A DNA stretch of 64,000 bases from Arcobacteraceae bacterium. GTDB lineage: Bacteria > Campylobacterota > Campylobacteria > Campylobacterales > Arcobacteraceae. Under the pieces are notes generated by a model. The model was given only the letters and a program-made list of their open reading frames with translations. It did not search any database and was not told the origin of the DNA. The stretch is taken from the NCBI GenBank assembly GCA_048268245.1, contig JBLWVX010000004.1, positions 64,001 through 128,000 on the forward strand. Reading direction: 5' to 3'. A program made the translations under genes and the position numbers. Positions 1-56,233 of this stretch are shown here, in pieces. Position 1 is the stretch's first letter. Every line of letters begins with the position of its first letter.

Positions 1-62
1 TAACTTTGAGTATTTCTACAATTATGCTCTATTTGAAGAAGATCAGCTACATTTAATTTCAA
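1..62 (-). CDS. 5' part of a gene that runs off the window, probably a further component of the adhesin secretion locus
   Basis: TTG at 62-60 with AAGGA just upstream, overlapping the adhesin stop; reads MKLNVADLLQIEHNCRNTQS... and stays open to the edge. Function inferred from context only. Confidence 0.5.
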   Translation of the reverse strand, partial: MKLNVADLLQIEHNCRNTQS

Positions 63-71
63 AGTTAATCC

Positions 72-39415: not shown

Positions 39416-40395
39416 TCAGGACTTGAAGAGACAAACTTGTTTAATAAAATAATCCAATTATTTTTATCATCAACAGGCATAACATCTCCTGATTTCTTTT
39501 TATAAATCGTAGCTATTTGTGCCCATTCGCCTTGTTTTGATTTAATAGTAAATTCATCACCTTTTCTTAATACTCTTAAGATAGTAGCTTCTTCAAAAGT
39601 ATCATTTCTTACATTTAAACTACTAACTTCTACTTTATATAAACATTGATCTATATTTTTGATACTTTTTTTAACTACTGAAGCTTTTTGAAATATCTCT
39701 TTTATACTTTTGTCTTCACTATTAGCTACTTTTTTAATAGTCTGTTTTTCTTCTTTCTTTTTAATTTCTTTAGTTTTTTCTTCTTTTTTAAGATCACTTA
39801 CAGAAATACCATAGTTACTTAATACAATATAGTATCCAAATTCATCATCAAGTTTTTTATATAATTTTACAGTTTTTGTTTGAGTATTAATAGCTACTAT
39901 TTTATGAGTTAATATATCATCACCTACTTTATATCGACCCTCAATATTTAAACTTTGTTCACTGTTATCACTACTAGTTTGTTTATCAAGTTTTAGCACA
40001 ACAAAATTTCTACCATTAAAAGAGTACATACTTTTAATTCTAATATCTTTTAAGTTCTTTGTTCTTGTAAAGTCTGTAGTAAGTCTAGCAATTTCATTTT
40101 CATGTTTAAATACATTTTTAGCATAATCTTCGTTTGATTGAATCACTTGATTAGAAATTGTCCCTCTAGATACTGTTCCTGGAACTTGCGTAACTATTCT
40201 TTGTTTTTGTTTTTGCTGTATGTTTGATATTTGCTCTTCTAAATAGTCTTTTTCTAATCCTGTAATAGCATTAAAAAACTCTTTTGATTGTTTATCTAAA
40301 ACATCAAGTTTATCGATATCATCCATACTTTTTTCTTGTGCATTAAGACTTATAAATCCTATAAATACTAAAGCAAATAATATACTTTTTTTCAT
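39406..40395 (-). CDS. Exported protein with C-terminal SH3b domain (possible PilP-like component)
   Basis: Start moved to MKKS at 40395 (AAGGGA RBS; signal ending LNA|Q); VEVSSLNVR...LRKGDEF...GEW. Confidence 0.65.
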   Translation of the reverse strand: MKKSILFALVFIGFISLNAQEKSMDDIDKLDVLDKQSKEFFNAITGLEKDYLEEQISNIQQKQKQRIVTQVPGTVSRGTISNQVIQSNEDYAKNVFKHENEIARLTTDFTRTKNLKDIRIKSMYSFNGRNFVVLKLDKQTSSDNSEQSLNIEGRYKVGDDILTHKIVAINTQTKTVKLYKKLDDEFGYYIVLSNYGISVSDLKKEEKTKEIKKKEEKQTIKKVANSEDKSIKEIFQKASVVKKSIKNIDQCLYKVEVSSLNVRNDTFEEATILRVLRKGDEFTIKSKQGEWAQIATIYKKKSGDVMPVDDKNNWIILLNKFVSSSPECL

Positions 40396-40414
40396 TTTTT
40401 CCCTTTTCAAACTC

Positions 40415-42622: not shown

Positions 42623-43113
42623 TTTTTCATATCCCTTGGTTTAGAAATATAATCTACAAAATATAGAGTTTCATTTGTATCACTTTTTCTAATTTCACCT
42701 AAATAAGAAAGTATACCTTCTCCTGCAAGAACTCCTTTTTCGGTACTTGCTGTAAGTTGTGCAATTATAATATGTCTATCTACACACATCTCTTTAGCAT
42801 CTAGATATTTTAAATTATAATCAAAAACAGACATTCTTTTAAAAATCTCACTTACTTTATCTTTAATTTCATCTTTTTTTATATAACTATCTTTTACTTC
42901 TTGGCTCTTTTGTTTTACTTTATTTACTTCTAACTTAAGTTTTGAGTATTCTATTTTTTTATTTTTTAACTCTTGAGCTAAAAACTCTTTTTCCTTTTGT
43001 GTTTGATAGTATGTAGCTGCTTTTAAAACTGTAAAACCTATTACATAAAACACTAATAATAAAATAGAAACCTTAGAAAATTTTTTTAACTTATTTGCAT
43101 TAATACTAATCAT
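42619..43113 (-). CDS. Bitopic membrane protein, possible PilO/GspM-like alignment subunit
   Basis: N-terminal TM, coiled coil and small globular domain; position in the locus. Confidence 0.5.
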   Translation of the reverse strand: MISINANKLKKFSKVSILLLVFYVIGFTVLKAATYYQTQKEKEFLAQELKNKKIEYSKLKLEVNKVKQKSQEVKDSYIKKDEIKDKVSEIFKRMSVFDYNLKYLDAKEMCVDRHIIIAQLTASTEKGVLAGEGILSYLGEIRKSDTNETLYFVDYISKPRDMKK

Positions 43114-43859
43114 TTTACAGCTCCATTACTAATACATTGAGTAAGCTCTTTATGTTTTCTTCTTGCTGTACGAAGCAATATTTTTTCACGAACAACTAAT
43201 CTTTTTTGTATTCTTATTTCATTTTTAATTTTCTTTAAAGAACTTGTTTCAATATATTTTTTCTCAATACTAGGTAATATATAAAAGATAATTACAGCAA
43301 TCATAGATATAAGTCCTATAATATATGCACTTTTCAAACTATATGTGTTTATTGTATCTAAAGGATTTAATTTTTCAACAAGAGTATTCACATCACCTAA
43401 ACTCTCTGCAATTACTTCACCCTTTTCATTTTTAGTATTTTGTTTTAAAATATTCTCAATAGCTGCATTATATTTAGTATTTGTCACATAATAAATATGT
43501 TCAATTTCCCCACCACTTGAAAGCATTGCAATATGCTTTGTAATTAAAACTGACTTCATAATATCATCAGAAATAAAGTTTGGATTTACCTTTGCAGTAT
43601 AAACAGTTTTATGATTAAATAAAATATAATACTCTTCATCTGCAATATGAACCAATAATTGATTATTATCTAAATGCTTTTTTGACAGTAAATTTAATGA
43701 ATAAACTTCATCATGAATATCATATTTTGATAAAATAACGCTATGTTTTTTTAAAGAGTCATATGTAAACATCGTTTGATTATCACCAAACTCATCATTT
43801 ACATATAAGTCATAGTTCTCTTCTTTTAAAGAAAAGTCAGTTATTACTAATCGAACCAT
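43110..43859 (-). CDS. Membrane protein, possible GspL/BfpC-like alignment subunit
   Basis: About 170-aa soluble domain, then TM, then coiled coil; overlaps the ATPase stop. Confidence 0.5.
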   Translation of the reverse strand: MVRLVITDFSLKEENYDLYVNDEFGDNQTMFTYDSLKKHSVILSKYDIHDEVYSLNLLSKKHLDNNQLLVHIADEEYYILFNHKTVYTAKVNPNFISDDIMKSVLITKHIAMLSSGGEIEHIYYVTNTKYNAAIENILKQNTKNEKGEVIAESLGDVNTLVEKLNPLDTINTYSLKSAYIIGLISMIAVIIFYILPSIEKKYIETSSLKKIKNEIRIQKRLVVREKILLRTARRKHKELTQCISNGAVK

Positions 43860-45568
43860 AACTCTTCCCCTTTTATAATAGCATTCGCATCTTCTTTTGT
43901 AATAAGCCCTTCATGGTATTGAGCCATACAAGCTTTTTCAACCGTCATATATTCAGCAGCATCCTCAAAATTTCCACCTTCACCTAGTTTAAATCTTACA
44001 ACCTCAGCAATTGGAACCCTGTCTTTAAATCCTGTTTTATTACACTCATCACAACCAACATTTGTAAATCCACCTTCACCATCAGGCTCTTTACAATACT
44101 CACATAACTTTCTAACTAATCTTTGAGATACAATACCTCTTAAGTTATCAGTAATATCCCCTTCATTAATACCAAGTGAATTTATCATTCTTGACACAGT
44201 TGCTGGAGCTGAGTTTGTATGCATAGTAGAGAATACTAACTGTCCTAAGTTTGAAGCATTTACTAACTGGTATGCTGTTTCTGGTTCTCTTGTTTCACCA
44301 ATAAGAATAATATTTGAATCCTGTCTTAAAATATCTACAACAGCTTCAGGATAACCATACTTAAACTCTTCACTAGCACTTGCATACTCAGATAAGTCAA
44401 TTTGGAAGAAAGAGTCATCAACATACTCAACAGGATCTTCAATAGTTACAATATATTGTTGTTGACGTGCTAATTTTTGTAAAAGAGCATACATCAAGTG
44501 TGTTTTACCAGAACCAACCTGCCCCGTGATTAGAATCATACCATTTGCATATTTTGTAAGGTTATGTAAAATATCTACTGTTTCTTGAGGGTAATTAAGT
44601 CCTCTTAAATCATGAGATACAACACCTTTACCACCAATCATTCTCATTACTAGTGAAAAGTTCATTTTTGAGTTTATAAGACCTAATCTAAATTTTATAG
44701 ATTTTTTTCCATATTCATAGTTTATCATACCATTAATAGATTCATAATCTGAATCCTCTTGATCAGCCATAGTTACAAGTCTTCTTTTAAGTGTTTTTGC
44801 AAGAGTAATTGGCATAGTACCCATATCTTGTTTCACCCCATCAATTCTAAACCATAGTGAAGCCGCTCTAGTACTTTTTTGAATATGAATATCAGAAGCT
44901 CCTAATAAAATAGCTTGCCCCATCATCTTTTCAAAGTATTTATTAATCTCATTATCATCTTCTACATCATCTTGAGATGTAAATACAATCTCTCTATCTT
45001 CCCCAAAAACAGAAGATAAAACCCCTTCTCCTAAAATAACAATCTTTGTAAAATAAAACTTACTTAAAATATCAAAATCAAGATTTACAATATCCCTAAT
45101 TCCTAATACTTTATTTTTACTATTTTTATCTTCTAATGTAATAATATACATACTAGTACAAAGTTCTAATTTTTCTTCATTTAATAAATAAGAAGTATCT
45201 TGATATTTTACAGATAACTGTGAATATGAAGGATAATATTCATAACCTAAACTTTTTACAAACACAGAGTATTTTGACTCATCAGCAATTAAATCGCCAT
45301 AACCTCCAATAAGTTTATACTTAGTTTTGATCATATTCTCAATAACTTCTGCTAAGTTTTTATCATCTTTATTTTTTTGTTTAAAAGCATTATTTAGTTT
45401 ATTTTTTTGCTTTTCTAAAACTTTTTTTATATCAAATTTCTTTTTTTTCTGATCTTTTGGAAGTAAGCTCTCACTTATTTTTTGGTCTTTACTTAAAAAT
45501 AAAGGTAGATTCTTTCGTACACTACTTTTTATTGTTCGCTTCCAAGCTTTTTTTAGAATATCTTTCAT
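43847..45568 (-). CDS. PilB/GspE-family secretion ATPase
   Basis: ASDIHI, FRIDG, Walker A GQVGSGKT, TIEDPVE, LRQDSNIILIGETR, STMHTNSA, SQRLVRKLCEYC...CDEC. Confidence 0.93.
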   Translation of the reverse strand: MKDILKKAWKRTIKSSVRKNLPLFLSKDQKISESLLPKDQKKKKFDIKKVLEKQKNKLNNAFKQKNKDDKNLAEVIENMIKTKYKLIGGYGDLIADESKYSVFVKSLGYEYYPSYSQLSVKYQDTSYLLNEEKLELCTSMYIITLEDKNSKNKVLGIRDIVNLDFDILSKFYFTKIVILGEGVLSSVFGEDREIVFTSQDDVEDDNEINKYFEKMMGQAILLGASDIHIQKSTRAASLWFRIDGVKQDMGTMPITLAKTLKRRLVTMADQEDSDYESINGMINYEYGKKSIKFRLGLINSKMNFSLVMRMIGGKGVVSHDLRGLNYPQETVDILHNLTKYANGMILITGQVGSGKTHLMYALLQKLARQQQYIVTIEDPVEYVDDSFFQIDLSEYASASEEFKYGYPEAVVDILRQDSNIILIGETREPETAYQLVNASNLGQLVFSTMHTNSAPATVSRMINSLGINEGDITDNLRGIVSQRLVRKLCEYCKEPDGEGGFTNVGCDECNKTGFKDRVPIAEVVRFKLGEGGNFEDAAEYMTVEKACMAQYHEGLITKEDANAIIKGEELWFD

Positions 45569-45577
45569 TTTTGTCTC

Positions 45578-46594
45578 TTATTGATATAAAGTTTTAAATG
45601 TAAACGTACTAATTACAAGATTTATAATATCAGAACCAATTATAACTGTAATCAACATTGCAATTAACCAAAAGAAAAATTTCCATTGTAAAACTATATA
45701 GTTAATATTTTTTTCATACATAGTATCACTAGTCTGGTATAAAGCTTTTGTAACTTCTGAATAACTCGTTTGACTTAATTCTGATAGTTTAATATCCGCT
45801 GTAATAATTGGAGGATAATTGTACTTTTCAAAAACCGTATATAGTTTTTTATTTTTATGAATTACATCTGCTAACTCTTTAAAAAATGGTCTAAGCCCTA
45901 CTTTAAAATAATCCTTTGATAAAATTAGGGATGTCTTATGAAAAGAGATACCCGCACTTAACATACCATTTAAAATTCTAAACATAAATCTTCCATCTGA
46001 GAAAGCTTGTGTTTTAAAAACTCTATATAACCATGCTGGTCTATATTTCTCAGTATAAATATAACCAAAAAAAATAGCCGCTGTAATCAATATGGAAATT
46101 ACTAATCCTATATATGCAAACTCATAAGTAAAATAGTTTGGGATTCCTAAAAACTGTTCCACATCTGCATTTAATTTTTTTAATTGACTTAAGTCTTTTT
46201 GCAAAATATCCAAATAAAGTAACATCCCATAAAAAGTTCCTATGATAATAATCATTGGAAATAAAATAGGATTTATCATCTTTGATAAAAGGTTTGAATT
46301 TGCTTTTTCAAAGGATAATACTAATTTTAAACCATCTATAGAGTTTGTACTATTTACTACCAAACTATATTGAAAAGAGTTTAAAAACTTATTTTTATAT
46401 AGTATAGCTTCAATTTTGTGTTTACCCACTTCTAAATCCCTAATTGCAGCTTCTAATCTTTTTTTAAAATTTGTTTCTCTTGTTATTTGCTCTTTATATA
46501 AAACTAAAGCTTTTCTAGTATTTGAACCATTTTCAAGCTTTGTTACTAAATAGTCAAGCAAAAACTGCTCATAAGGATCTTTAAATAAACTCAT
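45578..46594 (-). CDS. PilC/GspF-like inner membrane platform protein
   Basis: Three TM segments and two cytoplasmic lobes (LENGS..., MLSAGIS...); lies between the secretin and ATPase. Confidence 0.7.
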   Translation of the reverse strand: MSLFKDPYEQFLLDYLVTKLENGSNTRKALVLYKEQITRETNFKKRLEAAIRDLEVGKHKIEAILYKNKFLNSFQYSLVVNSTNSIDGLKLVLSFEKANSNLLSKMINPILFPMIIIIGTFYGMLLYLDILQKDLSQLKKLNADVEQFLGIPNYFTYEFAYIGLVISILITAAIFFGYIYTEKYRPAWLYRVFKTQAFSDGRFMFRILNGMLSAGISFHKTSLILSKDYFKVGLRPFFKELADVIHKNKKLYTVFEKYNYPPIITADIKLSELSQTSYSEVTKALYQTSDTMYEKNINYIVLQWKFFFWLIAMLITVIIGSDIINLVISTFTFKTLYQ

Positions 46595-46596
46595 TA

Positions 46597-48255
46597 CTAA
46601 AAGCCTTTTATATCTCTTACTGTAACTACATAAACAATTTCTCTTCTTACATAAGATTTTGAATCAGTTCCACCAATAGCAAAACCTTCTAAAGGTAATA
46701 CTCCTTGATACTCTTTTGCATCATCATGAACAATAATTGAGCCTACAATAGCAGTTTCACCTAAAGCTATTTGTCTTGAGATATTATAACTTTGATCTTT
46801 ATATTGTGGAAGTTTTATATTAGTTCCCTCTACTGTAACATCTTCAAAATTAATCAGTTTTTTAATACTAGGACTTATATTTAAAAAGATTTTATCCCTT
46901 GATACTTTTGCCATAGCAGTAATTGAAGTACCATCTTTTAAAGTATTAATAGTAATATCAGTAGTTGTTGAGTTTGTATCTTCATCCTTAGTTGTTTCAA
47001 TTTTTTCTATATAGTCTGTATTTTGACTAATTGATTGAACTGAAGGAATATTGTTTTTTAAGACAATTACATTTTTACTATAGTTTAAAATTTTTCCAAT
47101 ATTATTGTTTGCTTTTGCTGTGATTTTTAAAAGTCTTGTTGCATTATTACTTTCAAAAGCTATTTCACCTTTATCTTTTATAGATTTTAAAATACCTGTA
47201 TCTGTATTTGTTTGTCTATCTGAACTAATAGTTCCTATTCCATACTCTCTTTCTTTATTTAATACAAGTTCAATTCTTTCAAATTCAATAGTTGTTTCTT
47301 TTGCAAAACTATCTTCATATGCTTTTACTATTGTTCTTACAGCATTTTCAACGCTTTTTGTAGATTTTAAAAATATTAACCCACTTGCTTTATCAATATG
47401 ATAAGTTGATACATCATCACTAGCAATGATATTTTTAAGCATACTATCTAACTCATCATATAAAACTATTTGTGAACTATTTTGTACTGTACTTTCTGCA
47501 CTTGTTTCTTGAGTTGCTGTTTGACTACTTGATTTTAAATCAAGTACAGGAATATTTAACTCAATTACTAAATCTTTATATCTTTTTATATAAATAGTTT
47601 CTTTATCATAATCAACATCAACATAAACATTCTTCGAATGTGCTATTGAGTTTAAAGCATCCATTAAATTTCTAGTTTTAACAGATATTATACTATCTTG
47701 AAAACCATTAATATCTTTTATATATGAACCAATTGATACCTCATATCCAGATTCTGAAGTAATTAGTTTTATTAACTCTTCAACAGATATTTCACCATCT
47801 AGTTTAAAAGACAATCTATTTATATTTTGTTTTTTAGATTCACTTTTACTTAAAAGTTTAACTAAATATATAGAGCCACTTTTTTTAATAAAAAGCTCTT
47901 TATCTAAAACAGCATTTAAATACTGATTTAATTCAGTCATATTATGAATTTTTATTCTACTTTTAGGGATTAAGGTATCACTACTTTTTAGAAAGTAAAA
48001 GTTTCCATCAATTAATTCTAACTCTTTTAAAACATCAGAAAGAGATTTGTCATTTAATACACTAATAAACTCTTTTTTAGCTCTTTTTTCATTTACAAGT
48101 GTTTTAGAATAAGACTCTTTTATATTTCCATAGCTTTTTTTATTTACACCTTTTTTTACATCACTCATCATATCATTATGAAAGTTTTTCATACCACAAG
48201 CTGTAAATACAAACGGTATAAATAATAAAATAGAATATTTAAGTACTTTAATCAT
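46597..48255 (-). CDS. Lipoprotein secretin (PilN/BfpB/MshL-like)
   Basis: Lipobox FTAC; IDKASGLI N3-like motif; NNIP...TDYI, IKLPQ, LGETAIVG, RREIVYVVT. Confidence 0.8.
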   Translation of the reverse strand: MIKVLKYSILLFIPFVFTACGMKNFHNDMMSDVKKGVNKKSYGNIKESYSKTLVNEKRAKKEFISVLNDKSLSDVLKELELIDGNFYFLKSSDTLIPKSRIKIHNMTELNQYLNAVLDKELFIKKSGSIYLVKLLSKSESKKQNINRLSFKLDGEISVEELIKLITSESGYEVSIGSYIKDINGFQDSIISVKTRNLMDALNSIAHSKNVYVDVDYDKETIYIKRYKDLVIELNIPVLDLKSSSQTATQETSAESTVQNSSQIVLYDELDSMLKNIIASDDVSTYHIDKASGLIFLKSTKSVENAVRTIVKAYEDSFAKETTIEFERIELVLNKEREYGIGTISSDRQTNTDTGILKSIKDKGEIAFESNNATRLLKITAKANNNIGKILNYSKNVIVLKNNIPSVQSISQNTDYIEKIETTKDEDTNSTTTDITINTLKDGTSITAMAKVSRDKIFLNISPSIKKLINFEDVTVEGTNIKLPQYKDQSYNISRQIALGETAIVGSIIVHDDAKEYQGVLPLEGFAIGGTDSKSYVRREIVYVVTVRDIKGF

Positions 48256-48263
48256 TTTTTTCC

Positions 48264-51134
48264 TTATTTAAAATAAAACTCATAGTCAAAACCACCTAGA
48301 TATGTAGGAAATTTTAAAAATGGTTTATTTACATTTTCAAACTCATCGTATGTCATACTACTATTTAATTCACTATTTTGTGTAATAAATAATTTATTGA
48401 TACTACTTATTTTACCAACATCATACAAAGAAGTACTTAAAAGAGGCAATGCTCTTCCTGAATTTCCCCAGCAATACATCTTCGATGCACTTCCTAAACC
48501 TGTCATAGCACAGACAAAATATCTTTGTGAGTCTTTTACTTCAATTTTTATGTTATCAATTCCAAAAGATTCATTTGAGACATCTTCTCCTAATAAAGCA
48601 CCAAACCCTAATCTTAAATTACCCCTTGAATTAAGTCTTGCTTCGAGTTCATAATAGTGTGCTTCATCTAAAGCACTAGATGAGCCTGAAACTGTTATAG
48701 CATAACCATGTCTAGCATCTTTATCTTCTCCAGAACCATCAACTTTATATGTATCTTGTATTACTTTATTATTGTTAACATATACAGTTAAAGCTTCTGT
48801 TATTCCTCCATCATCACTGTAATCACCTGCATCCCATGAATCTATTTCATACATTACAAAAGATATTTTAACATCTTTATTTGCATTATTACTACCAAAA
48901 TTATATGTTTTATAAACTTGTTGTGAACCATCAGAAGAAAAAGTGCTCCAACCTAAATATCTTCCTTTACCAAATCTTCCTAAAAATTTTGTAGCTTCAT
49001 TGCCATCATGTACTAAATTTGTGTTCCATCCACTTGCTCCATCTTCAAAATCTTCAAAAGATACAGCAGATATATTATTTGTTTTAAAGATGGATACATT
49101 TGAAAACTCACCCTCTTCATCTTCAGCTTTATTAAACTTATCAATCATACTTTTAAATAAGTCTCTATTAGTTTGTCGTCCACAATACTGATCTGCTTTA
49201 AATCTACATGTTAAAAGTTTATCATCCCTACTAGAACCTATGTTTTTAGCATAAATTTTTCTGTCTTCATCTACATATATATAGTTTCGCTCCATTACTC
49301 CAGTTGAATGATTTGGAATAAGCATAGTTGATACACTTAATGCACTTGTAGGTACATATGAAGTAGAAATGCTTTGAGTTGAAATACCATTTTCTATATT
49401 TTCAAATCTATAAAAGATCTTATTATCACTTCTTAAAATTAAAGTATCACTATTTACAAAAACACGACTTGGATCAAACCTTCTATCACTGTTATCTTTG
49501 GTAGGCTTTAAAAGTATTGTTCCATCAGACTTTTCTCCCCAAACCCAAAGTCTATTATCTTCATCTAATGCAGCAAAAGTTTTTGTATCTCTTAAGGCAT
49601 ACAAGTATTTAAATACTTGTCCACTTGTATTTACCTTTGTTGGAGTATTATTAATATATGTTTCATCACTATTATTGATTCCTAAAACACCTTTGTCATT
49701 TATGCCAAAAGTATATATATCTCCTGCTTGGGATAAAACTGCTATTGCATTATCAACCATAACTAAATCAATTAAATAAATTTCATTTTCATCATTATCT
49801 TTTTTATCACTTTTTCCAGTTGCAAAAAATCTATTTCTTTTAAGTATTGAAGTAGTTACTTCTTTAAGGTTTTGAGTTGTATCAATATCTTCAAAATGTA
49901 AAGAGTTAACTCTTCCATTACAGTATAAATCTCCTCCAAATTTTACGTAAGGTCCTAGTTCCATATCACTTTCTGATTCTACGTCAGTTCCTGATTGAAA
50001 ATAGTCAAATATAGGCGATATCCCACACACATTTTTACTGTTTAATGCCATTTTTTCAAACTTTACTCTATATGGATTGTTATACCATCTTTTATCTCTT
50101 CTAGTATATGATCTACCTGTATCATCCGTAATAGATACTTCGTTATCTATCTGAACTTTTAACATCACAGGGGTATTTATAAAATCAGGTGAAAAGTTTG
50201 GATTTAATTGACCATGTGTTTCAATACCTGCTTTTTTGTTGTGGTTACTTCCCCAGCAAAAAATGTCTCCATTTGCTAGCATACAACCACCATCATTTCT
50301 TAAAACTAAATCCTTAGCATTTGGAATATATGAAATAATTCTGTCTTCTACATCAGCTTCTTCATCTTGACTATTTAAAATACTTCCTGATTCAACAGGT
50401 ATCCAACTTGTACCACTTGTATCACCTTGATAGTAATATTCATACCAGTTATTATTTTTTTGACCAAAAACTCTATCTCCAACCTTAGCTTTTATATATT
50501 GTAAATCATCTAAATTTTCTAAAACTATTGGAGGTCTTTGATAAACTTCAATTGAAGTCTGGTCAGCTTTACAAAATTTATATATTAATTTTTCTCCTTT
50601 TAATTCATAATAATAATTTTGTTTGGGACAAGCTTTCGTATCTAAAGATATAAGTTCATTTTCATTTTTTAATTTAACTATCTCTTTTACTACTTTATTA
50701 TATTTTATCTGTGAGCCTTTTAGAAGCTCTACTTGTGTTGTGTCTTTTGGAGGGGCAGTATTAACTCTGAAAAGTGCTGATTGATAGAAGTTATATAAAA
50801 ACATATCTTTAGTATTATAATCATCTTCTTTTTCAATTGCTCCTAAAATAAAAAGGTTATTGTTAGCATCAAATCTTGTAACTAAAGTATTTAAAGTAAA
50901 ATCATTTTTATTATTAAAAGTATTTAAGTAATCTATATCATTTAAAAGAGTCCAATTTAAAGTACCAGTTGTTGTTTTGGGTATTTTTCCTGTTTGTTGT
51001 ATATATTTATTTACAGCAAGAGCAATAAACTCTTCTTTTTTTATAACTTTTTTTATTGCATTCATGTCAGTTTTATTTTCAAAACTTGAATAAAGTGATG
51101 TAATAAAAATCAATATAAAAAATAAAGCTTTCAT
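48264..51134 (-). CDS. Secreted protein: pilin/PilV-like N-domain, RCC1-like repeats and an inserted beta-sandwich (putative adhesin), 956 aa
   Basis: Signal peptide; KKEEFIALA; NGDIFCWGSN, GGDLYCNG, GDIYTFG, NRLWVWG, KMYCWGN. Confidence 0.65.
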   Translation of the reverse strand: MKALFFILIFITSLYSSFENKTDMNAIKKVIKKEEFIALAVNKYIQQTGKIPKTTTGTLNWTLLNDIDYLNTFNNKNDFTLNTLVTRFDANNNLFILGAIEKEDDYNTKDMFLYNFYQSALFRVNTAPPKDTTQVELLKGSQIKYNKVVKEIVKLKNENELISLDTKACPKQNYYYELKGEKLIYKFCKADQTSIEVYQRPPIVLENLDDLQYIKAKVGDRVFGQKNNNWYEYYYQGDTSGTSWIPVESGSILNSQDEEADVEDRIISYIPNAKDLVLRNDGGCMLANGDIFCWGSNHNKKAGIETHGQLNPNFSPDFINTPVMLKVQIDNEVSITDDTGRSYTRRDKRWYNNPYRVKFEKMALNSKNVCGISPIFDYFQSGTDVESESDMELGPYVKFGGDLYCNGRVNSLHFEDIDTTQNLKEVTTSILKRNRFFATGKSDKKDNDENEIYLIDLVMVDNAIAVLSQAGDIYTFGINDKGVLGINNSDETYINNTPTKVNTSGQVFKYLYALRDTKTFAALDEDNRLWVWGEKSDGTILLKPTKDNSDRRFDPSRVFVNSDTLILRSDNKIFYRFENIENGISTQSISTSYVPTSALSVSTMLIPNHSTGVMERNYIYVDEDRKIYAKNIGSSRDDKLLTCRFKADQYCGRQTNRDLFKSMIDKFNKAEDEEGEFSNVSIFKTNNISAVSFEDFEDGASGWNTNLVHDGNEATKFLGRFGKGRYLGWSTFSSDGSQQVYKTYNFGSNNANKDVKISFVMYEIDSWDAGDYSDDGGITEALTVYVNNNKVIQDTYKVDGSGEDKDARHGYAITVSGSSSALDEAHYYELEARLNSRGNLRLGFGALLGEDVSNESFGIDNIKIEVKDSQRYFVCAMTGLGSASKMYCWGNSGRALPLLSTSLYDVGKISSINKLFITQNSELNSSMTYDEFENVNKPFLKFPTYLGGFDYEFYFK

Positions 51135-51135
51135 T

Positions 51136-51840
51136 CTAGTCCACTTCTTTTATTTCATTATTAATAAGTTTTATATATTTAACAGAATTTTGTACGTAAA
51201 TATATCTTCCAACTGCTAAACTATTTAGTTTTGTATCAGATAGCATTGTTTTACTGCTTACTGTTACATTTCCTAAATTAAACTCTTCTTTATCATACTC
51301 TATCCAATCAGCAGAACTTGCACCTATCCATCTTAGAGTAGTGTCATTTTTATTACAATATGTATTAGTTTCACTTTCACAAGTTTTAGATATTGAGTTT
51401 CCACTATTTAAAAGATTAAAAATAGTTTTAGCTTTTTTATCTTGAAGTGAAATTGCTATATATGAATCAGCATAATCTGAAAGTTCTTTAACACTTGTCC
51501 TTTGTCTATATAAATCCCTTAGATATAAAGCTCTTAAGTAAGGTGCTATTTTTTCTTTTATAAGTGCATATTTCAAAGTATTATTTGTTTTAAATTCTAT
51601 GTCATCACCAAATTTGTTTTTTATATCAAAATTTTCACCTAAATATTTTGATGTCATTAAATCACTTATACTTGAGGGTATTGAAAATTCATTTAATAAA
51701 TAGTTTTCATACTCTAAAGCAATTTTTTCTTCATTTTTGATTAGATTTTGAACATATAAAACATTTTTTTGTTTTAAAATAGTTGGATTAGCACATAGAG
51801 TTGTCAATGTAAAAACAAATATAAAAATAGCTTTAATCAT
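51136..51840 (-). CDS. Secreted protein with pilin/PilV-like N-domain
   Basis: Signal ending LCA|N; KNEEKIALEY...PSSISDLMTSKYLGENF..KNKFG; Cys pair. Confidence 0.6.
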   Translation of the reverse strand: MIKAIFIFVFTLTTLCANPTILKQKNVLYVQNLIKNEEKIALEYENYLLNEFSIPSSISDLMTSKYLGENFDIKNKFGDDIEFKTNNTLKYALIKEKIAPYLRALYLRDLYRQRTSVKELSDYADSYIAISLQDKKAKTIFNLLNSGNSISKTCESETNTYCNKNDTTLRWIGASSADWIEYDKEEFNLGNVTVSSKTMLSDTKLNSLAVGRYIYVQNSVKYIKLINNEIKEVD

Positions 51841-52586
51841 TGTAATCTCCTGATATCATTATAAGTTTTTAAATATTTTTCATTTTTAAAATCAATAAGT
51901 TTTGTTCCAGGAACAAGATTCAAAAACTCTTCTGAGTCATGTAATGTTCTATCATCAGTTATTATAATAGGACCTGTTTTAAAGTTCTCCATATAAAAGA
52001 ACATCAGTAAGTTATCTAGTTTTATATCACCACCCGTTTCTAATTTATCTGTTGTGTTAAAAATATAAATATGATTATCTTTAATACAATATTTCACAGT
52101 TGTATCACTACAAATATTTATAGCTTTGTTTTGCATTTGCATTAAAGTATGCAGAGTTTTTGCAAAACTATCATTTAAACGTATAATAACCTTACCATCA
52201 TAAATAAAAGTATTTTCTCTATAGTTTGCACTTTTATATAAAGCAATGATTGAACTATCAATACTAGAATTTGTTGTAATCAATCTATCGTTGAAATTTA
52301 GTTTTCCTGTAGAATCTAAAACAAAATCTTTAAAAAAAAGTTCATCTCCTGAATTAAAACTGCTTTTGAAAGTTGTACCTAAGTATTCATTTGTTTTAAG
52401 CTGTGATATATTTGTAGGATATGATAACTCATTTATAATATATCTTTCATAGGCTCTTGCAATAGCTTCTTCTTGTTGGATAATCTTTTTTACTTTATCA
52501 ACTAAAATTTTTCTTTGTTCAAAAAAATCACTATTTGCTTGTAAAAAGTTTGTTATAAAAAATAAAACTAGTATATATTTCATCAT
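51837..52586 (-). CDS. Secreted protein with pilin/PilV-like N-domain
   Basis: Signal ending LQA|N; QQEEAIARAY...PTNISQLKTNEYLGTTF; Cys pair. Confidence 0.6.
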   Translation of the reverse strand: MMKYILVLFFITNFLQANSDFFEQRKILVDKVKKIIQQEEAIARAYERYIINELSYPTNISQLKTNEYLGTTFKSSFNSGDELFFKDFVLDSTGKLNFNDRLITTNSSIDSSIIALYKSANYRENTFIYDGKVIIRLNDSFAKTLHTLMQMQNKAINICSDTTVKYCIKDNHIYIFNTTDKLETGGDIKLDNLLMFFYMENFKTGPIIITDDRTLHDSEEFLNLVPGTKLIDFKNEKYLKTYNDIRRLQ

Positions 52587-53320
52587 AAAAAACTCTTTAA
52601 TTTGTTGTATAATTTTACATCTCTTGGACTTTGTGATTTTAAAAGTACTTCTAAAACTCTTTGTTTAAAATACTCTTCTTGTCTTTGCTTTAAAACATCA
52701 GTATCTAAAGGTAGAGTCTCACCATCTTTTGAAAAGTCTTGATACATAAGATTATATGGAATATTATCTTCAACTAATGTATCATAAGCTGTTTTAGTAA
52801 TAGTTTCTATATTATATAAAGAAGCATGTATAACTTTTTGCAAAGCTTTTTGTATAGCTTCATCTTTGTATGATAAGTTTTTTTCTTCTATTCCTACATC
52901 TAATATAAGATTTTTCTTACCTGAAATTTCAACTTCACTAACACTATTGTCATTGCCAGACTCTTTAAGTTTAGCTCTTAGAGCAAAAAGTTTTAGTTTA
53001 TCTTCTTCACTTATTTGTAAAGTACCATCTTCTTGAAGTAAAGCATCATTTTGTAAATCAGCACTTGAAGTTCTATCAAGTAAAAGTAACCATTCCCAGT
53101 TACCATTTTGAGGTAATAAAGCTATAATTTCATCCCTTGAAATATTTTGTGGGTCTATGGAGTACTTGTAAGCTAAGAGTGTTTTTATATCTCTTATAAT
53201 CTCATAGCTTTCTTGCATATGTTTTACATCTTGCAAGTCACTATAAGATCTATAAGCAACAGATGCAGAAAATATGGCTACTACTGCAATAGCCGAACTT
53301 AGCCATATATTTCTTAGCAT
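52583..53320 (-). CDS. Pilin-like protein with N-terminal hydrophobic helix
   Basis: MLRNIWLSSAIAVVAIFSASVAY followed by an amphipathic helix. Confidence 0.5.
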   Translation of the reverse strand: MLRNIWLSSAIAVVAIFSASVAYRSYSDLQDVKHMQESYEIIRDIKTLLAYKYSIDPQNISRDEIIALLPQNGNWEWLLLLDRTSSADLQNDALLQEDGTLQISEEDKLKLFALRAKLKESGNDNSVSEVEISGKKNLILDVGIEEKNLSYKDEAIQKALQKVIHASLYNIETITKTAYDTLVEDNIPYNLMYQDFSKDGETLPLDTDVLKQRQEEYFKQRVLEVLLKSQSPRDVKLYNKLKSFL

Positions 53321-53344
53321 GTTTTTTTCTTTCTGTAAAACAGA

Positions 53345-53995
53345 TTATGGTCTTACAACTTCATTAGCTAAAAGATCATTAAAATAAATTATAAACATCC
53401 CATCAGTATCATTCCCACCATCACCATTTTCTGTAGGTATTCTTGATGCAATTCCTAAAGCTGCCGCATCTAAAGCTCCAGCTGTTGCACTTGTTGCTTG
53501 TCTATCAAAAGTTGCAATACCTCTTAAATCAAATGCTATTTGAGTTTCCAAAAATCCTGCATTTGCAGCTAGCGTACCTTGAGATAAATCAACAAACAAT
53601 CCTGGAGAAGCTCCTGCAATATTATTAACTAATGTAATTTCCATAGAATTATCAGCTCCAAAAGATATTGCTTGATACGTATTATTTGTATCTGCTTGTA
53701 CTACATTTAAAGGATCTAGTTGCTCATTAACTTGCTCTGGAAAGTAGTCTCCTAATTCAATAATACCTTCTAATGTAGCTGCTGCAGTACCAGCTGTTAC
53801 ATCAGCACCACCTGGTACCCCAATTTGTCTTGTCGCTGCTGCTCTTTGAACACCATCTTTAATCATTCTTATTTCAGATATGGCACTTGTTTTTTGGGCC
53901 ATTCCTTCAATCTTGTCACCAGTTCCTCCAAATGTTTGGAACATATAAATCATAGCTCCAACTACTACTATTACCATTGCTATCAGTTGTGGCAT
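53345..53995 (-). CDS. Candidate major pilin, leaderless
   Basis: MPQLIAMVIVVVGAMIYMF, then long helix ISEIRMIKDGVQRA; Ala/Gly/Thr-rich; GAAAGGA RBS. Confidence 0.55.
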   Translation of the reverse strand: MPQLIAMVIVVVGAMIYMFQTFGGTGDKIEGMAQKTSAISEIRMIKDGVQRAAATRQIGVPGGADVTAGTAAATLEGIIELGDYFPEQVNEQLDPLNVVQADTNNTYQAISFGADNSMEITLVNNIAGASPGLFVDLSQGTLAANAGFLETQIAFDLRGIATFDRQATSATAGALDAAALGIASRIPTENGDGGNDTDGMFIIYFNDLLANEVVRP

Positions 53996-54059
53996 TTCAA
54001 TCCTTTCTGTTTATTAATTAAATTTGACATACTACCTACCTACCACCCGTTACTTAAAA

Positions 54060-54599
54060 CTATTTATGTACTTTACACACCAAAAATCCATCACTTTTTG
54101 AACCTGAACCTGTAAATACAGCATTTGTTGTATCATAAGCATTTAAAACATAATTAACTTCCCCAAACAAAGCTTTTTCACAGAATTCTCTCCCTACAAA
54201 GCTTTCTGAGAATCTAGCTTTACTCATCAAAGCACTATTTTTACTCATGTTTACCATAAGTGAATATGAATTATTTTTATCATCAGAGGTAGGAATTATT
54301 TGCCATTCTACGTCATCTTTATTTGGATGAGTTACAACTGTAGCCATTCCTCCTGAGTCATCAGGAATTATCTCACTTCCCTCTAGTAAAAAACCATCAT
54401 CATTTAAAACTTCAAAGTTCAAAGTTGATAGACTTTCGCCTGCTTGAATATATGTATTCACATAACCATCTACTAACTCAAACATCACTTTCATCTCTTC
54501 AAGTTCTGCTTTTATAGTAGAGTCATCAGCTTCATATCTAGTAAGAATAATAATCATAGCAGATGTTACAGCGATTATTGATGCGACAAAGTAAGCCAT
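54060..54599 (-). CDS. Pilin-like protein, leaderless, with C-terminal Cys pair
   Basis: MAYFVASIIAVTSAMIIIL; amphipathic helix; LNDDGFL; FC...VC near the C-terminus; AAGGGA RBS. Confidence 0.55.
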   Translation of the reverse strand: MAYFVASIIAVTSAMIIILTRYEADDSTIKAELEEMKVMFELVDGYVNTYIQAGESLSTLNFEVLNDDGFLLEGSEIIPDDSGGMATVVTHPNKDDVEWQIIPTSDDKNNSYSLMVNMSKNSALMSKARFSESFVGREFCEKALFGEVNYVLNAYDTTNAVFTGSGSKSDGFLVCKVHK

Positions 54600-54884
54600 G
54601 TATTTCCCTTACATATTTATGTTATAATTCAATTATACTATATTTTTTTTTAAAATAACACTTAAAGTTTCCAAAAGTCATATTTTTTAGACCACTAAAA
54701 AGTTATTTATTGTTTCAATGCCACTCTAAGATTTTATATTACGTAAATTATCCATAATTATTAGATTATTTGACAAATCTTAAATTTTGTTTAAAGTACT
54801 ATTTATGAAGACAATTACGTTATACTTAGTTATTAATTATTATTTTTATGATACAATTAATAAAATTCATTAAAAGACTTAAGA

Positions 54885-56135: not shown

Positions 56136-56233
56136 CTATTTTTGTAACATTTATAATAACATTTGTGCTTTCTCATACTATTTTGATACTTTTTAACTAT
56201 ATAATATTATAAAATAAAGATTAAGGTATAAAA

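What the first reader, a model, noticed from the sequence alone, without database searches (positions are those of the whole stretch)
52583..54599. Three pilin-like genes with no class III leader peptide, possibly peptidase-independent pilins
Seen: the first three genes start almost directly with a ~20-aa hydrophobic helix (MAYFVASIIAVTSAMIIIL; MPQLIAMVIVVVGAMIYMF; MLRNIWLSSAIAVVAIF), followed by an amphipathic helix and a globular part. None has a basic leader, a Gly|Phe cleavage site or Glu5. The starts at 53995 and 54599 have good RBSs, and an in-frame TGA/TAA closes each frame upstream, so a leader was not missed. 54060-54599 has a C-terminal Cys pair like a pilin D-region. 53345-53995 is Ala/Gly/Thr-rich, unlike its Lys/Ile-rich neighbours. 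Established: type IV pilins normally need prepilin-peptidase cleavage before assembly. Inference: these subunits are made in an already mature form.
Basis: partly seen in the sequence, partly recalled or inferred. Interest (0 to 1): 0.8.

Follow-up and report, generated by a model that had tools for sequence, protein, structure and literature searches.

The report
Pilin-fold genes without leader peptides
Two, possibly three, genes at the head of a conserved 14-gene pilus-machine operon in Arcobacter relatives encode proteins predicted to have the type IV pilin shape but lacking the cleavable leader that defines such pilins, so this filament system may work without the usual processing enzyme.

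Summary
Genes A (54060-54599), B (53345-53995) and C (52583-53320), all on the minus strand, begin directly with a hydrophobic helix. They have no basic leader, no Gly|Phe site and no Glu5. In-frame stops lie 3-8 codons upstream.

They head a 14-gene operon (54599 to 38309) with a PilB/GspE-type ATPase, a divergent platform protein, an MshL-like lipoprotein secretin and two RCC1 propeller proteins. All 14 genes keep their order in 9 of 10 related Arcobacteraceae loci.

AlphaFold gives A and B a roughly 52-residue N-terminal helix plus an alpha/beta head. For both, the best structural matches are the full-length type IVb pilins CofA and TcpA (Z 7.2-8.3), and 26 and 21 of the top 50 rows are pilins.

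B behaves like a major pilin. Residues 2-22 are 93% identical across genera against 46% for the head, and 118 of 120 homologues start with MP. The C fold was not tested.

An exhaustive profile search found no B relative with a leader. The operon has no A24 peptidase, although a housekeeping one occurs in 119 of 121 family genomes.

Best reading, at about 0.6: leaderless, peptidase-independent type IV pilin-like subunits of a new, family-restricted filament system. Polymerisation and the true N-terminus remain unshown.

The parts
54060..54599 (-). Gene A, 179 aa: leaderless pilin-fold protein, probably a minor or second pilin, with an invariant Cys140/Cys175 pair.
   Evidence: AF2 on 57 sequences gives pLDDT 73.8, helix 2-52 and a beta-sheet head. 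VIA wide search: CofA pilus 9iuf_A Z 8.3 (149 aligned, 1..178), TcpA 8uhf_A Z 7.7, and 21 of 50 rows are pilins. 44 of 56 homologues start MP and 12 of 56 start MA. hhalign against the B family: 77.4%, E 2e-5, colinear from residue 1.
53345..53995 (-). Gene B, 216 aa: leaderless pilin-fold protein and candidate major subunit.
   Evidence: AF2 on 91 sequences gives pLDDT 91.2, pTM 0.83, helix 2-54 and an alpha/beta head. VIA wide search: CofA Z 7.2 (157 aligned, 3..206), TcpA Z 6.6, and 26 of 50 rows are pilins. In the second look the 7 top rows are all pilins. Residues 2-22 are 93% identical across 10 genomes against 46% for the rest. 118 of 120 homologues start MP. B is the only Ala/Gly/Thr-rich protein in the operon, at 33.3%.
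52583..53320 (-). Gene C, 245 aa: bitopic protein with a conserved N-terminal TM helix followed by a long helix. Its fold is untested.
   Evidence: TM segment at 5-23. 96 homologues share a conserved N-terminus, M(L/F)GNIWLSSAL. There is no Pfam, NCBIfam, PDB-profile or atlas match and no profile similarity to A or B. It is syntenic in 9 of 10 loci.
51837..52586 (-). Gene D, 249 aa: Sec-signal-peptide protein carrying the domain shared by D, E, F and L.
   Evidence: hhalign D~E 99.9%, D~F(1-160) 97.2%, D~L(1-160) 97.9%. The N-terminal hydrophobic part is variable (33% identity), followed by a conserved helix KEE.IA.AYE.YI.
51136..51840 (-). Gene E, 234 aa: paralogue of D.
   Evidence: hhalign E~L(1-160) 99.1% and E~F(1-160) 98.1%. 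The nearest named atlas clusters are PilV shufflon tip-adhesin families, at score 0.85, which is a lead only.
48264..51134 (-). Gene F, 956 aa: exported RCC1 beta-propeller protein with the D/E-type N-terminal domain and a conserved C-terminal motif.
   Evidence: Pfam hits RCC1_2 at 1.2e-7 and RCC1 at 8.5e-7. The C-terminal motif F(L/M)K(Y/F)PTYIGGF(D/N)YEF.FK is present in all 10 copies.
46597..48255 (-). Gene G, 552 aa: lipoprotein secretin, MshL-like and divergent.
   Evidence: NCBIfam TIGR02519 MshL at E 4.5e-13, below its cut-off. Cys20 after a signal-peptide-like segment is invariant in 10 sequences.
45578..46594 (-). Gene H, 338 aa: divergent GspF/PilC-type platform protein.
   Evidence: Weak T2SSF hit at E 0.017 (residues 13-79) and weak HofC hit at E 0.0042 (residues 204-319). 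Three hydrophobic segments. 70-96% identity across genera. Strong hits occur in 20 of 121 family genomes, all of which also carry B.
43847..45568 (-). Gene I, 573 aa: PilB/GspE-type assembly ATPase.
   Evidence: Pfam T2SSE at 3.4e-67. NCBIfam GspE 4.2e-61 and PilB 1.4e-58, both below the equivalog cut-offs. Best PDB matches are EpsE at 3.6e-47 and PilB at 1.5e-41.
43110..43859 (-). Gene J, 249 aa: bitopic protein with a cytoplasmic N-domain and a TM at 180-198. A GspL/PilM-N-like role is inferred.
   Evidence: TM position. No family match. Syntenic.
42619..43113 (-). Gene K, 164 aa: N-terminal TM at 15-33 plus a coiled coil. A GspM/PilO-like role is inferred.
   Evidence: FtsL-like hits only. 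Syntenic.
40415..42622 (-). Gene L, 735 aa: second exported RCC1 propeller protein, with the same N-terminal domain and C-terminal motif as F.
39406..40446 (-). Gene M, 346 aa: exported protein with a weak SH3_3 match.
   Evidence: Pfam SH3_3 at 5.1e-4, below cut-off. Syntenic.
38309..39415 (-). Gene N, 368 aa: last gene of the conserved block, with no hydrophobic segment and no family match.
   Evidence: Present in all 9 syntenic loci by tblastn.

Best explanation
A and B (and possibly C) are type IV pilin-like subunits translated without a class III leader. They belong to a divergent type IV filament (TFF) system restricted to Arcobacteraceae, encoded by the 14-gene operon 54599 to 38309.

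Inferred mechanism:
- The N-terminal hydrophobic helix acts as an uncleaved signal anchor. It places the acidic head domain in the periplasm, with the N-terminus at the cytoplasmic face.
- No prepilin peptidase step is needed, because there is nothing to remove.
- At most the initiator Met is excised, since residue 2 is Pro in B and Pro, Ala or Gly in A. This would leave an N-terminal Pro, a secondary amine like the N-methyl-Phe of canonical pilins.
- The PilB/GspE-type ATPase I, working through platform H and the bitopic proteins J and K, extracts subunits from the membrane and polymerises them through their invariant alpha1N helices. B is the major subunit.
- The fibre passes the lipoprotein secretin G.
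- The Sec-exported proteins D, E, F and L share one N-terminal domain, and F and L also share a C-terminal motif and RCC1 propellers. They are either tip-associated adhesins (PilY1-like) or cargo secreted by the fibre (TcpF/CofJ-like).

Shown here: gene content, synteny, absence of a leader, predicted fold and the conservation pattern. Inferred: topology, Met excision, polymerisation, and the roles of C-F, J-N and L.
For: 1. Fold. B has a high-confidence model (pLDDT 91.2, pTM 0.83) with a continuous helix 2-54 and an alpha/beta head. A has helix 2-52 and a beta-sheet head (pLDDT 73.8). A Foldseek-independent search of 48,161 chains ranks the same two full-length type IVb pilins first for both. 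For B: 9iuf_A CofA pilus Z 7.2, rmsd 4.5, 157 aligned over 3..206, and 8uhf_A TcpA Z 6.6. For A: Z 8.3 (149 aligned, 1..178) and Z 7.7. By my count of entry titles, 26 of 50 (B) and 21 of 50 (A) listed rows are pilins or pseudopilins. Truncated head-only pilin structures also match: PilA1, CofB, TcpB and PilS, and C. difficile PilW Z 6.8 and PilA1 Z 5.9-6.1, where the 7 top rows are all pilins. The match is therefore not only the long helix.

2. Pilin-type conservation. In B, residues 2-22 are 93% identical across 10 genomes of several genera against 46% for the head. The figures are 58 against 43 for A and 46 against 37 for C. The Sec signal peptides of D, E, F and L in the same genomes are less conserved (28-33%) than their mature parts (39-50%).

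3. No leader anywhere. Upstream stops lie 1-12 codons before the start with no alternative start, in 11 of 11 B loci and 10 of 10 A loci. 118 of 120 B homologues start MP. A profile search of 1.84 billion representatives found 41 hits, and every listed hit whose match includes profile position 1 starts at its own residue 1. No canonical prepilin was hit.

4. Machine context. The operon has a T2SSE ATPase (3.4e-67), a weak T2SSF platform and an MshL-like secretin, and no Peptidase_A24 among its 14 proteins. All 14 genes keep their order in 9 of 10 fetched loci. B and the platform H co-occur: 20 genomes have both, 1 has B only (85% complete, 380 contigs), and no B-less genome has a strong H hit, only two hits at 21-22% identity, out of 121.

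5. A and B are distant paralogues (hhalign 77.4%, E 2e-5, 139 columns from residue 1).

6. Periplasmic head. A has an invariant Cys pair. The C-terminal flanks of the TM carry net charge -4 (A), 0 (B) and -1 (C), and all three proteins are acidic overall.

7. Motor genes are far more conserved than the putative filament and exported genes. H and I are 70-96% identical, while A-F and L are 25-54% identical in other genera.
Against: - Structural Z-scores are middling at 6.6-8.3. The tool notes that models with no clear Foldseek match typically reach a best Z of 7-8 anyway. Foldseek itself gave no match at E<=0.001, with the best rows, including PilA1, at E about 0.8.
- There is no sequence-level link to any pilin family.
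- Glu5, thought to drive subunit docking, is absent, and so is any acidic residue in the helix.
- B has a conserved GGTG at 23-26 where the model's confidence dips to 75.
- A PilD-type peptidase with its methylase domain is present in this genome and in 119 of 121 family genomes, so independence from it cannot be read from gene content.
- 12 of 56 A homologues start MA, and 88 of 96 C homologues have Gly at position 3. These could be minimal peptidase sites.
- The C fold is untested.
- Nothing shows a filament.
Confidence: 0.6

Rival explanations
1. A, B and C have a pilin-like fold but do not polymerise. They stay as bitopic inner-membrane proteins that form part of the assembly or stator complex. 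This would resemble the archaellum proteins FlaF/FlaG, which are archaellin-like but uncleaved (recalled from memory, no call). The machine's real output would then be secretion of the Sec-exported proteins D, E, F and L through the secretin.
For: The class III cleavage site and Glu5, both linked to polymerisation, are missing. Four operon proteins have ordinary Sec signal peptides and would sit in the periplasm as potential cargo. The ATPase is slightly closer to GspE than to PilB.
Against: The near-invariance of B's first 37 residues across genera, next to a variable head, is the pattern of a polymerising major pilin. The best structural matches are filament subunits over their full length, including alpha1N. 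The operon already has two other bitopic proteins, J and K, in the positions of GspL/M- or PilN/O-like parts. B's composition stands out from the rest of the operon.
Confidence: 0.2
2. The N-termini are processed after all. Either the housekeeping PilD-type peptidase clips a minimal 1-3-residue leader (MA|Y or MG|Y in some A proteins, M(L/F)G|N in C), or signal peptidase I removes the hydrophobic segment and releases soluble periplasmic proteins.
For: A PilD-like peptidase (A24_N_bact plus Peptidase_A24) is encoded on contig 16 and is near-universal in the family. Residue 2 of A is Ala in 12 of 56 homologues. Residue 3 of C is Gly in 88 of 96. B has small residues at 23-26 (TFGGTG) that fit a -3/-1 rule loosely.
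Against: B has Pro at position 2 in 118 of 120 homologues, and A has Pro in 44 of 56. The window's own C has Arg where the others have Gly. There is no basic n-region in any A or B homologue. The hydrophobic stretch is TM-length (19-20 residues) and far more conserved than the true signal peptides of D, E, F and L in the same genomes. AF2 models it as one helix continuous with alpha1C.
Confidence: 0.1
3. The fibre of this machine is built from canonical prepilins encoded elsewhere in the genome. A, B and C would be accessory proteins.
For: The genome has about 9 N_methyl-type genes on other contigs (6 above the Pfam cut-off) and two A24 peptidases.
Against: Those pilin genes cluster with other motors. 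Four of the ten N_methyl places lie on contig 24 beside another T2SSE ATPase, and a Tad-like ATPase sits beside the short peptidase on contig 3. None lies on the window's contig. A, B and C are strictly syntenic with this machine, and B co-occurs with its platform protein.
Confidence: 0.07

Closest known systems
Type IVb pili (CFA/III CofA, toxin-coregulated pilus TcpA, bundle-forming pilus)
   Same: All parts sit in one operon. The pilins are large (179-216 aa), and their models match CofA and TcpA best. The secretin is a lipoprotein. There is a single PilB-type ATPase with no PilT-type gene among the 14 operon proteins. Sec-exported proteins are encoded alongside. In CFA/III, CofJ binds the minor pilin CofB, as shown in the title of PDB entry 5ypz listed. 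Secretion of TcpF and CofJ by these pili is recalled from memory.
   Different: There is no leader peptide at all, whereas T4b leaders are the longest known (review passages). There is no Glu5. The operon has no dedicated prepilin peptidase gene. The platform and secretin are too divergent to reach any family cut-off. There is no sequence similarity to T4b pilins.
MSHA pilus and type II secretion system
   Same: The secretin's only family match is MshL (E 4.5e-13). The ATPase's best family and PDB matches are GspE/EpsE.
   Different: All scores are far below the equivalog cut-offs (48.9 against 250.2 bits, and 207 against 630 bits). There are no GspG-K or MshA-D type prepilins and no GspC/D N-domain matches.
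PilY1-type tip adhesins of type IVa pili (recalled from memory)
   Same: F and L are large, Sec-exported, beta-propeller-containing proteins encoded with the pilins.
   Different: The propeller is RCC1-type, with no match to PilY1 families. F and L share an N-terminal domain with two small paralogues, D and E, and carry a family-specific C-terminal motif.
Archaellum FlaF/FlaG (recalled from memory)
   Same: Filament-subunit-like fold with an uncleaved N-terminal TM helix and no class III site.
   Different: Those are beta-sandwich archaellin-like stator proteins, not T4b-like alpha/beta heads, and the system is archaeal. No comparison was run here.

Membership tests
Type IV pilins (class III signal peptide proteins, Pfam N_methyl PF07963 / IPR012902) | Hydrophilic leader peptide ending in Gly or Ala and cleaved by an A24 prepilin peptidase | tested here: not met
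   A, B and C start directly with the hydrophobic helix. Upstream stops lie 3-8 codons away in the window and 0-17 codons away across the 11 loci. No alternative start is present for A or B. 0 of 120 B and 0 of 56 A homologues have K/R in the first 8 residues, and B has Pro at position 2 in 118 of 120. There is no N_methyl hit. The feature definition comes from passages of PMC10191384.
Type IV pilins (class III signal peptide proteins, Pfam N_methyl PF07963 / IPR012902) | About 20-25 hydrophobic residues forming alpha1N, continuous with an amphipathic alpha1C (a helix of about 53 residues in all) | tested here: met
   Hydrophobic segments lie at 1-19, 4-22 and 5-23. AF2 predicts helices 2-54 (B) and 2-52 (A). 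C was not modelled.
Type IV pilins (class III signal peptide proteins, Pfam N_methyl PF07963 / IPR012902) | Glu at mature position 5 (frequent, not universal) | tested here: not met
   There is no D/E in the first 20 residues of any of 120 B or 56 A homologues, and in only 1 of 96 C homologues.
Type IV pilins (class III signal peptide proteins, Pfam N_methyl PF07963 / IPR012902) | Lollipop fold: alpha1 packed on an antiparallel beta-sheet head | tested here: met
   This holds for A and B only. The top VIA matches are CofA and TcpA (Z 7.2/6.6 and 8.3/7.7), and 26 of 50 and 21 of 50 rows are pilins. The Z values are middling, so the case rests on the consistency of the hits. C was not tested.
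Type IV pilins (class III signal peptide proteins, Pfam N_methyl PF07963 / IPR012902) | Polymerisation into a helical filament by a TFF machine | not testable with these tools
   This needs fibre purification or imaging. The genes are co-encoded and co-occur with an ATPase, platform and secretin.
Type IVb pilus systems | Clustered genes including a dedicated prepilin peptidase (TcpJ/BfpP/CofP type) | tested here: not met
   There is no Peptidase_A24 hit among the 14 operon proteins. The genome's two A24 genes lie on contigs 16 and 3. In the complete genome G002 they lie 2.7-2.8 Mb from the operon.
Type IVb pilus systems | Assembly ATPase, polytopic platform protein and outer-membrane secretin in the cluster | tested here: inconclusive
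   The ATPase is clear (T2SSE 3.4e-67). The platform has only E 0.017 and 0.0042 hits plus three hydrophobic segments. The secretin has only MshL at 4.5e-13, below cut-off. PDB sequence and profile searches were empty.
Type II secretion system | GspG-K pseudopilins with class III signal peptides, plus GspC/D/L/M | tested here: not met
   No T2SSG or N_methyl hits in the operon. Only the ATPase resembles GspE, below the equivalog cut-off.

The most novel reading that the evidence does not exclude
This is the first type IV filament class whose subunits are translated in mature form and assembled without any prepilin peptidase. Ribosomal Met excision would expose an N-terminal Pro, a natural secondary amine standing in for N-methyl-Phe. 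Subunit docking would work without the Glu5-to-N-terminus salt bridge. The fibre would carry or secrete RCC1-propeller proteins that dock through a family-specific N-domain and a conserved C-terminal FxKYPTYIGGFxYEFxFK motif. That would make the class III signal peptide a dispensable rather than defining feature of type IV filaments.
Probability: 0.4. Interest if true: 0.85.

Novelty: new variant of a known kind. Interest (0 to 1): 0.74.

Why it matters
- **Challenge to the definition.** Type IV pilins are defined by their class III signal peptide, and every described type IV filament system is said to need a prepilin peptidase (review passages). A conserved system whose pilin-fold subunits have no leader, no Gly-1 and no Glu5 would show that leader cleavage, N-methylation and the Glu5 salt bridge are not mechanistically essential for filament assembly.
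- **A natural test case.** It would help address the long-open question of what N-terminal processing and methylation are for.
- **Blind spot in detection tools.** Pilin finders based on the signal peptide, and family models, miss these subunits entirely. Similar systems may therefore be overlooked elsewhere.
- **Possible ecological role.** The system is an accessory trait of marine and animal-associated Arcobacteraceae. It may matter for surface or host attachment.

Tried and rejected
- **Homo-oligomer prediction.** Four copies of B with the 91-row alignment scored 0.00 against a mark of 0.42. That is no verdict either way, and the controls were not run.
- **Foldseek against PDB for B.** No match at E<=0.001. 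The best rows were at E about 0.8.
- **Family scans of all 14 proteins.** Pfam and NCBIfam gave nothing for A, B, C, D, E, J or N.
- **PDB sequence and profile searches.** Those for B, C, the shared D/E/F/L domain, G and H returned no meaningful hit.
- **Pfam scan of the shared-domain alignment.** Across the 39 members only scattered chance hits appeared.
- **ESM Atlas.** For C there was no usable hit. For E only its own cluster passed 0.9, and the PilV-type clusters at 0.85 are a lead, not evidence.
- **Profile comparison of C.** C against A or B gave probability <=0.5%.
- **A24 peptidase co-occurrence.** I asked whether operon-bearing genomes lack an A24 peptidase. The test is uninformative, because 119 of 121 family genomes have one.
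- **Promoter and terminator scan of 53200-54900.** There were fewer promoter-like sites than in shuffles, and one terminator-like site inside gene C.
- **RNA evidence.** Only assembled contigs were available for the four metatranscriptome libraries laid (3 studies). They cover parts of A, B and C at 85-99% likeness, but contigs cannot show level, strand or transcription. Four contigs end at 54595-54605 near A's start, which is at most a weak hint of a nearby 5' end. Parts without cover mean nothing.
- **Earlier findings of this scan.** Three look-ups returned nothing.
- **Literature.** 'leaderless pilin' occurs in 0 papers. Searches combining Arcobacter or Aliarcobacter with type IV pili, secretin, GspE or pilin found nothing on this system in their listings. 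PMC11870540 (passages read) concerns flagellar PilMNO homologues, not this operon.

Full report
**1. The observation**

The three minus-strand ORFs are as described. A is 54060-54599 (179 aa), B is 53345-53995 (216 aa) and C is 52583-53320 (245 aa). Each starts with one TM-length hydrophobic segment, at residues 1-19, 4-22 and 5-23.

In-frame stops lie 3, 5 and 8 codons upstream of the three ATGs, with no ATG/GTG/TTG between. A and B are preceded by AAGGG/AAAGGA motifs. Pfam and NCBIfam find no family for any of the three at E<=0.1. A whole-genome search with the N_methyl model finds 10 places, none on the window's contig.

B is 33.3% Ala+Gly+Thr against 10.9-19.9% for the other 13 operon proteins. 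The two cysteines of A (C140, C175) are invariant in 57 sequences.

**2. The surroundings**

The three genes head a minus-strand block of 14 genes, 54599 to 38309.

| Gene | Size | What it looks like |
|---|---|---|
| D, E | 249, 234 aa | Sec-type signal peptides |
| F | 956 aa | RCC1 repeats |
| G | 552 aa | Cys20 invariant after a signal-peptide-like segment; only family match is MshL secretin, E 4.5e-13, below cut-off |
| H | 338 aa | Three hydrophobic segments; weak hits to both halves of GspF/HofC (E 0.017, 0.0042) |
| I | 573 aa | T2SSE 3.4e-67; GspE 4.2e-61 and PilB 1.4e-58, both below equivalog cut-offs; best PDB EpsE 3.6e-47 |
| J | 249 aa | TM at 180-198 |
| K | 164 aa | TM at 15-33 |
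| L | 735 aa | RCC1 |
| M | 346 aa | Weak SH3_3 |
| N | 368 aa | No match |

None of the 14 proteins matches Peptidase_A24. This is a divergent type IV filament machine.

The genome also holds three other T2SSE ATPases, on contigs 24, 11 and 3. Canonical N_methyl genes lie mostly beside the contig-24 ATPase. There are two A24 peptidases. One is a 265-aa PilD type with the A24_N_bact domain, sitting between lptG and uppS. The other is a 155-aa ORF 2 kb from the contig-3 ATPase.

**3. Relatives and distribution**

B has 480 database relatives, A has 56 and C has 96. Those with names are all 'hypothetical protein' from Arcobacter, Aliarcobacter and Poseidonibacter. The closest named one is from Arcobacter roscoffensis, at 90% identity for B.

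In 121 Arcobacteraceae genomes, own genome included, B is found in 21, spread over 9 of 22 genera. Strong matches to platform H are found in 20 genomes, and all of these also have B. The one genome with B but no H is 85% complete in 380 contigs. The only H matches in B-less genomes are two hits at 21-22% identity. In 401 genomes of the phylum, H was found in 6, all in this family, and in 0 of 377 genomes from 13 other families.

I fetched ten loci of about 20 kb. Nine carry all 14 genes in the same order. H, I and G are 58-96% identical to the window's copies. A-F and L are 25-54% identical in other genera. The tenth locus (L020) is a divergent version. It has an A-like gene (starts MPLLIAM), a B-like gene (starts MPLLIAA), a 188-aa protein that also starts with a hydrophobic helix, and two RCC1 proteins. 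Its H homologue (31% identity) lies 4.4 kb away on the same contig.

**4. Is there really no leader?**

- In 11 of 11 loci for B and 10 of 10 for A, the frame is closed 1-12 codons upstream with no alternative start.
- 118 of 120 listed B homologues start MP, 117 of them MPQLI. The other two start at what is Met7 elsewhere.
- 44 of 56 A homologues start MP and 12 start MA. One fetched locus has MG.
- No A or B homologue has an acidic residue in the first 20 positions or a basic one in the first 8.
- A loose class III pattern occurs in 23 of 120 B sequences, but at position 36 or 30, beyond the membrane segment.
- An exhaustive profile search with the 91-sequence B alignment against 1.84 billion representatives gave only 41 hits at E<=0.001. 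Every listed hit whose match includes profile position 1 begins at its own residue 1. No canonical prepilin was hit.

C differs. 88 of 96 homologues have Gly at position 3 (M-L/F-G-N-I-W-L-S), while the window's own copy has Arg.

**5. Fold**

AlphaFold2 with the 91-sequence alignment gives B a confident model (pLDDT 91.2, pTM 0.83). It has a continuous helix 2-54, with a dip to 75 around the conserved GGTG at 23-26, followed by an alpha/beta head. A, with 57 sequences, gives pLDDT 73.8, pTM 0.65, helix 2-52 and a beta-sheet head.

Foldseek found nothing at E<=0.001 for B. Its best rows, at E about 0.8, already included C. difficile PilA1.

The Foldseek-independent search of 48,161 chains ranks the same two full-length type IVb pilins first for both models:

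| Model | CofA pilus 9iuf_A | TcpA 8uhf_A |
|---|---|---|
| B | Z 7.2, rmsd 4.5, 157 aligned, 3..206 | Z 6.6, 151 aligned |
| A | Z 8.3, rmsd 3.7, 149 aligned, 1..178 | Z 7.7, 144 aligned |

PilA1, PilS, CofB, TcpB and many type IVa pilins and pseudopilins follow in both lists. By my count of entry titles, 26 of 50 rows for B and 21 of 50 for A are pilins or pseudopilins.

In the second look at Foldseek's list for B, the seven top rows are all pilin head domains: PilW Z 6.8, four PilA1 entries Z 5.9-6.1, and two CofB entries Z 4.8. The next row is at 3.9.

The tool warns that Z of 7-8 is common for models without a clear match. The case therefore rests on the consistency and full-length coverage of the matches, not on the scores alone.

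A and B are themselves distant paralogues (hhalign 77.4%, E 2e-5, 139 columns starting at residue 1).

**6. An internal control for 'signal peptide or pilin helix'**

Across the same ten genomes, mean pairwise identity is as follows.

| Family | Residues 2-22 | Residues 56 to end |
|---|---|---|
| B | 93% | 46% |
| A | 58% | 43% |
| C | 46% | 37% |
| D | 33% | 39% |
| E | 28% | 44% |
| F | 31% | 47% |
| L | 31% | 50% |

The hydrophobic N-termini of D, E, F and L behave like disposable Sec signal peptides. They have a short, variable h-region with small residues at -3/-1. Those of A, C and above all B behave like functional, packed helices. An invariant N-terminal helix on a variable head is the hallmark of a major pilin.

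**7. The other exported proteins**

D, E and the first 130 or so residues of F and L share one domain (hhalign 97.2-99.9% in all six pairs). It begins, after the signal peptide, with a conserved helix KEE.IA.AYE.YI. It has no Pfam or PDB match. The nearest named atlas clusters for E are PilV shufflon tip-adhesin families, at 0.85, which is a lead only.

F and L also end in a shared motif, F(L/M)K(Y/F)PTYIGGF(D/N)YEF.FK, in all 10 copies of each.

By analogy, recalled from memory and not tested here, they could be PilY1-like tip proteins or cargo secreted by the fibre, like TcpF and CofJ. CofJ's binding to the minor pilin CofB is documented in the title of PDB entry 5ypz.

**8. Most likely mechanism**

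Shown here:
- Pilin-fold proteins without a leader.
- Co-encoding and co-inheritance with a PilB/GspE motor, a platform and a secretin.
- No peptidase gene in the operon.

Inferred:
- The helix is an uncleaved signal anchor with the head outside. A's invariant Cys pair supports this, as do the net charges of the 15 residues after the helix (-4, 0, -1) and the acidity of all three proteins.
- No peptidase step is needed.
- Residue 2 of A and B (Pro, Ala or Gly) is compatible with Met excision (specificity recalled from memory). This would leave Pro1, a secondary amine like N-methyl-Phe.
- The motor polymerises B through its invariant helix, with A, and perhaps C, as low-abundance subunits.

According to passages of the Pelicic 2023 review (PMC10191384):
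- Prepilins are defined by the class III signal peptide.
- The leader invariably ends in Gly or Ala.
- Glu5 is frequent but not universal and is absent from the tip subunit.
- The purpose of N-methylation is unknown.

This system would be an exception to the first two points.

**9. Rivals**

- **Non-polymerising role.** Pilin-fold but non-polymerising membrane components of a secretion machine (0.2).
- **Residual processing.** Processing by PilD at minimal sites, or by signal peptidase I (0.1). Pro2 in B argues against this, as do the lack of an n-region, the TM-length segment and the conservation contrast. For C, and for the MA-type A proteins, it stays open.
- **Canonical pilins from elsewhere.** Canonical pilins encoded elsewhere build the fibre (0.07).

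The housekeeping peptidase is in 119 of 121 family genomes, so gene content cannot separate these readings.

**10. Expression**

Contigs from four metatranscriptome libraries of three studies cover parts of A, B and C at 85-99% likeness. Contigs cannot show transcription level or strand, and DNA can be present in such libraries.

**11. Novelty**

No Pfam or NCBIfam model covers A, B, C, D, E, J or N. Every database name seen is 'hypothetical protein'. 'leaderless pilin' occurs in 0 papers of the library. Three searches on Arcobacter or Aliarcobacter pili gave nothing on this system in their listings. Papers outside the library were not searched.

I rate it a new variant of a known kind: a type IV filament system lacking the feature that defines its subunits.

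**12. Limits**

- All structural evidence is predicted.
- The homo-oligomer prediction gave no verdict.
- The C fold, the roles of D-F and J-N, the true N-termini and the existence of a fibre are open.

Noticed in passing
L017 9166-10368 (genome G065); counterpart of window 45578-46594: In one complete genome the platform gene H is split. Residues 61-338 and 1-71 are separated by about 1.3 kb holding a 400-aa Mutator/IS256-family transposase (Pfam 2.6e-102). The system is probably inactivated there.
   Followed up: yes
window 48264-48330 and 40415-40480 (C-termini of F and L): The two RCC1 propeller proteins end in the same strongly conserved 18-residue motif, F(L/M)K(Y/F)PTYIGGF(D/N)YEF.FK, in all 10 copies of each. 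Its function is unknown. It could be a docking strand or a sorting signal.
   Followed up: partly
window 51136-52586, 50655-51134, 42143-42622: D, E and the N-terminal 130 or so residues of F and L form one uncharacterised domain family (hhalign 97-99.9%). It has a conserved post-signal-peptide helix, KEE.IA.AYE.YI, and no Pfam or PDB match. An atlas lead points to PilV shufflon tip adhesins, at score 0.85 only.
   Followed up: partly
L020 12564-19953 (genome G014): A divergent, rearranged version of the system. The A-like and B-like genes both start MPLLIA. They are followed by a 188-aa protein with an N-terminal helix and two RCC1 proteins lacking the F/L C-terminal motif, next to rplM and rpsI. 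The platform homologue lies 4.4 kb upstream.
   Followed up: partly
window 54885-58462 (+ strand): A GGDEF protein (416 aa) is transcribed divergently from the operon, followed by a GGDEF-EAL protein (742 aa). Only the same-genus locus L022 has a clear orthologue of the first (70% identity), so a c-di-GMP link to the operon is not established.
   Followed up: partly
window 52583-53320, residue 3 of C: 88 of 96 C homologues have Gly at position 3 (M-L/F-G-N-I-W), resembling a vestigial class III cleavage site with a 3-residue leader. The window's copy alone has Arg.
   Followed up: partly
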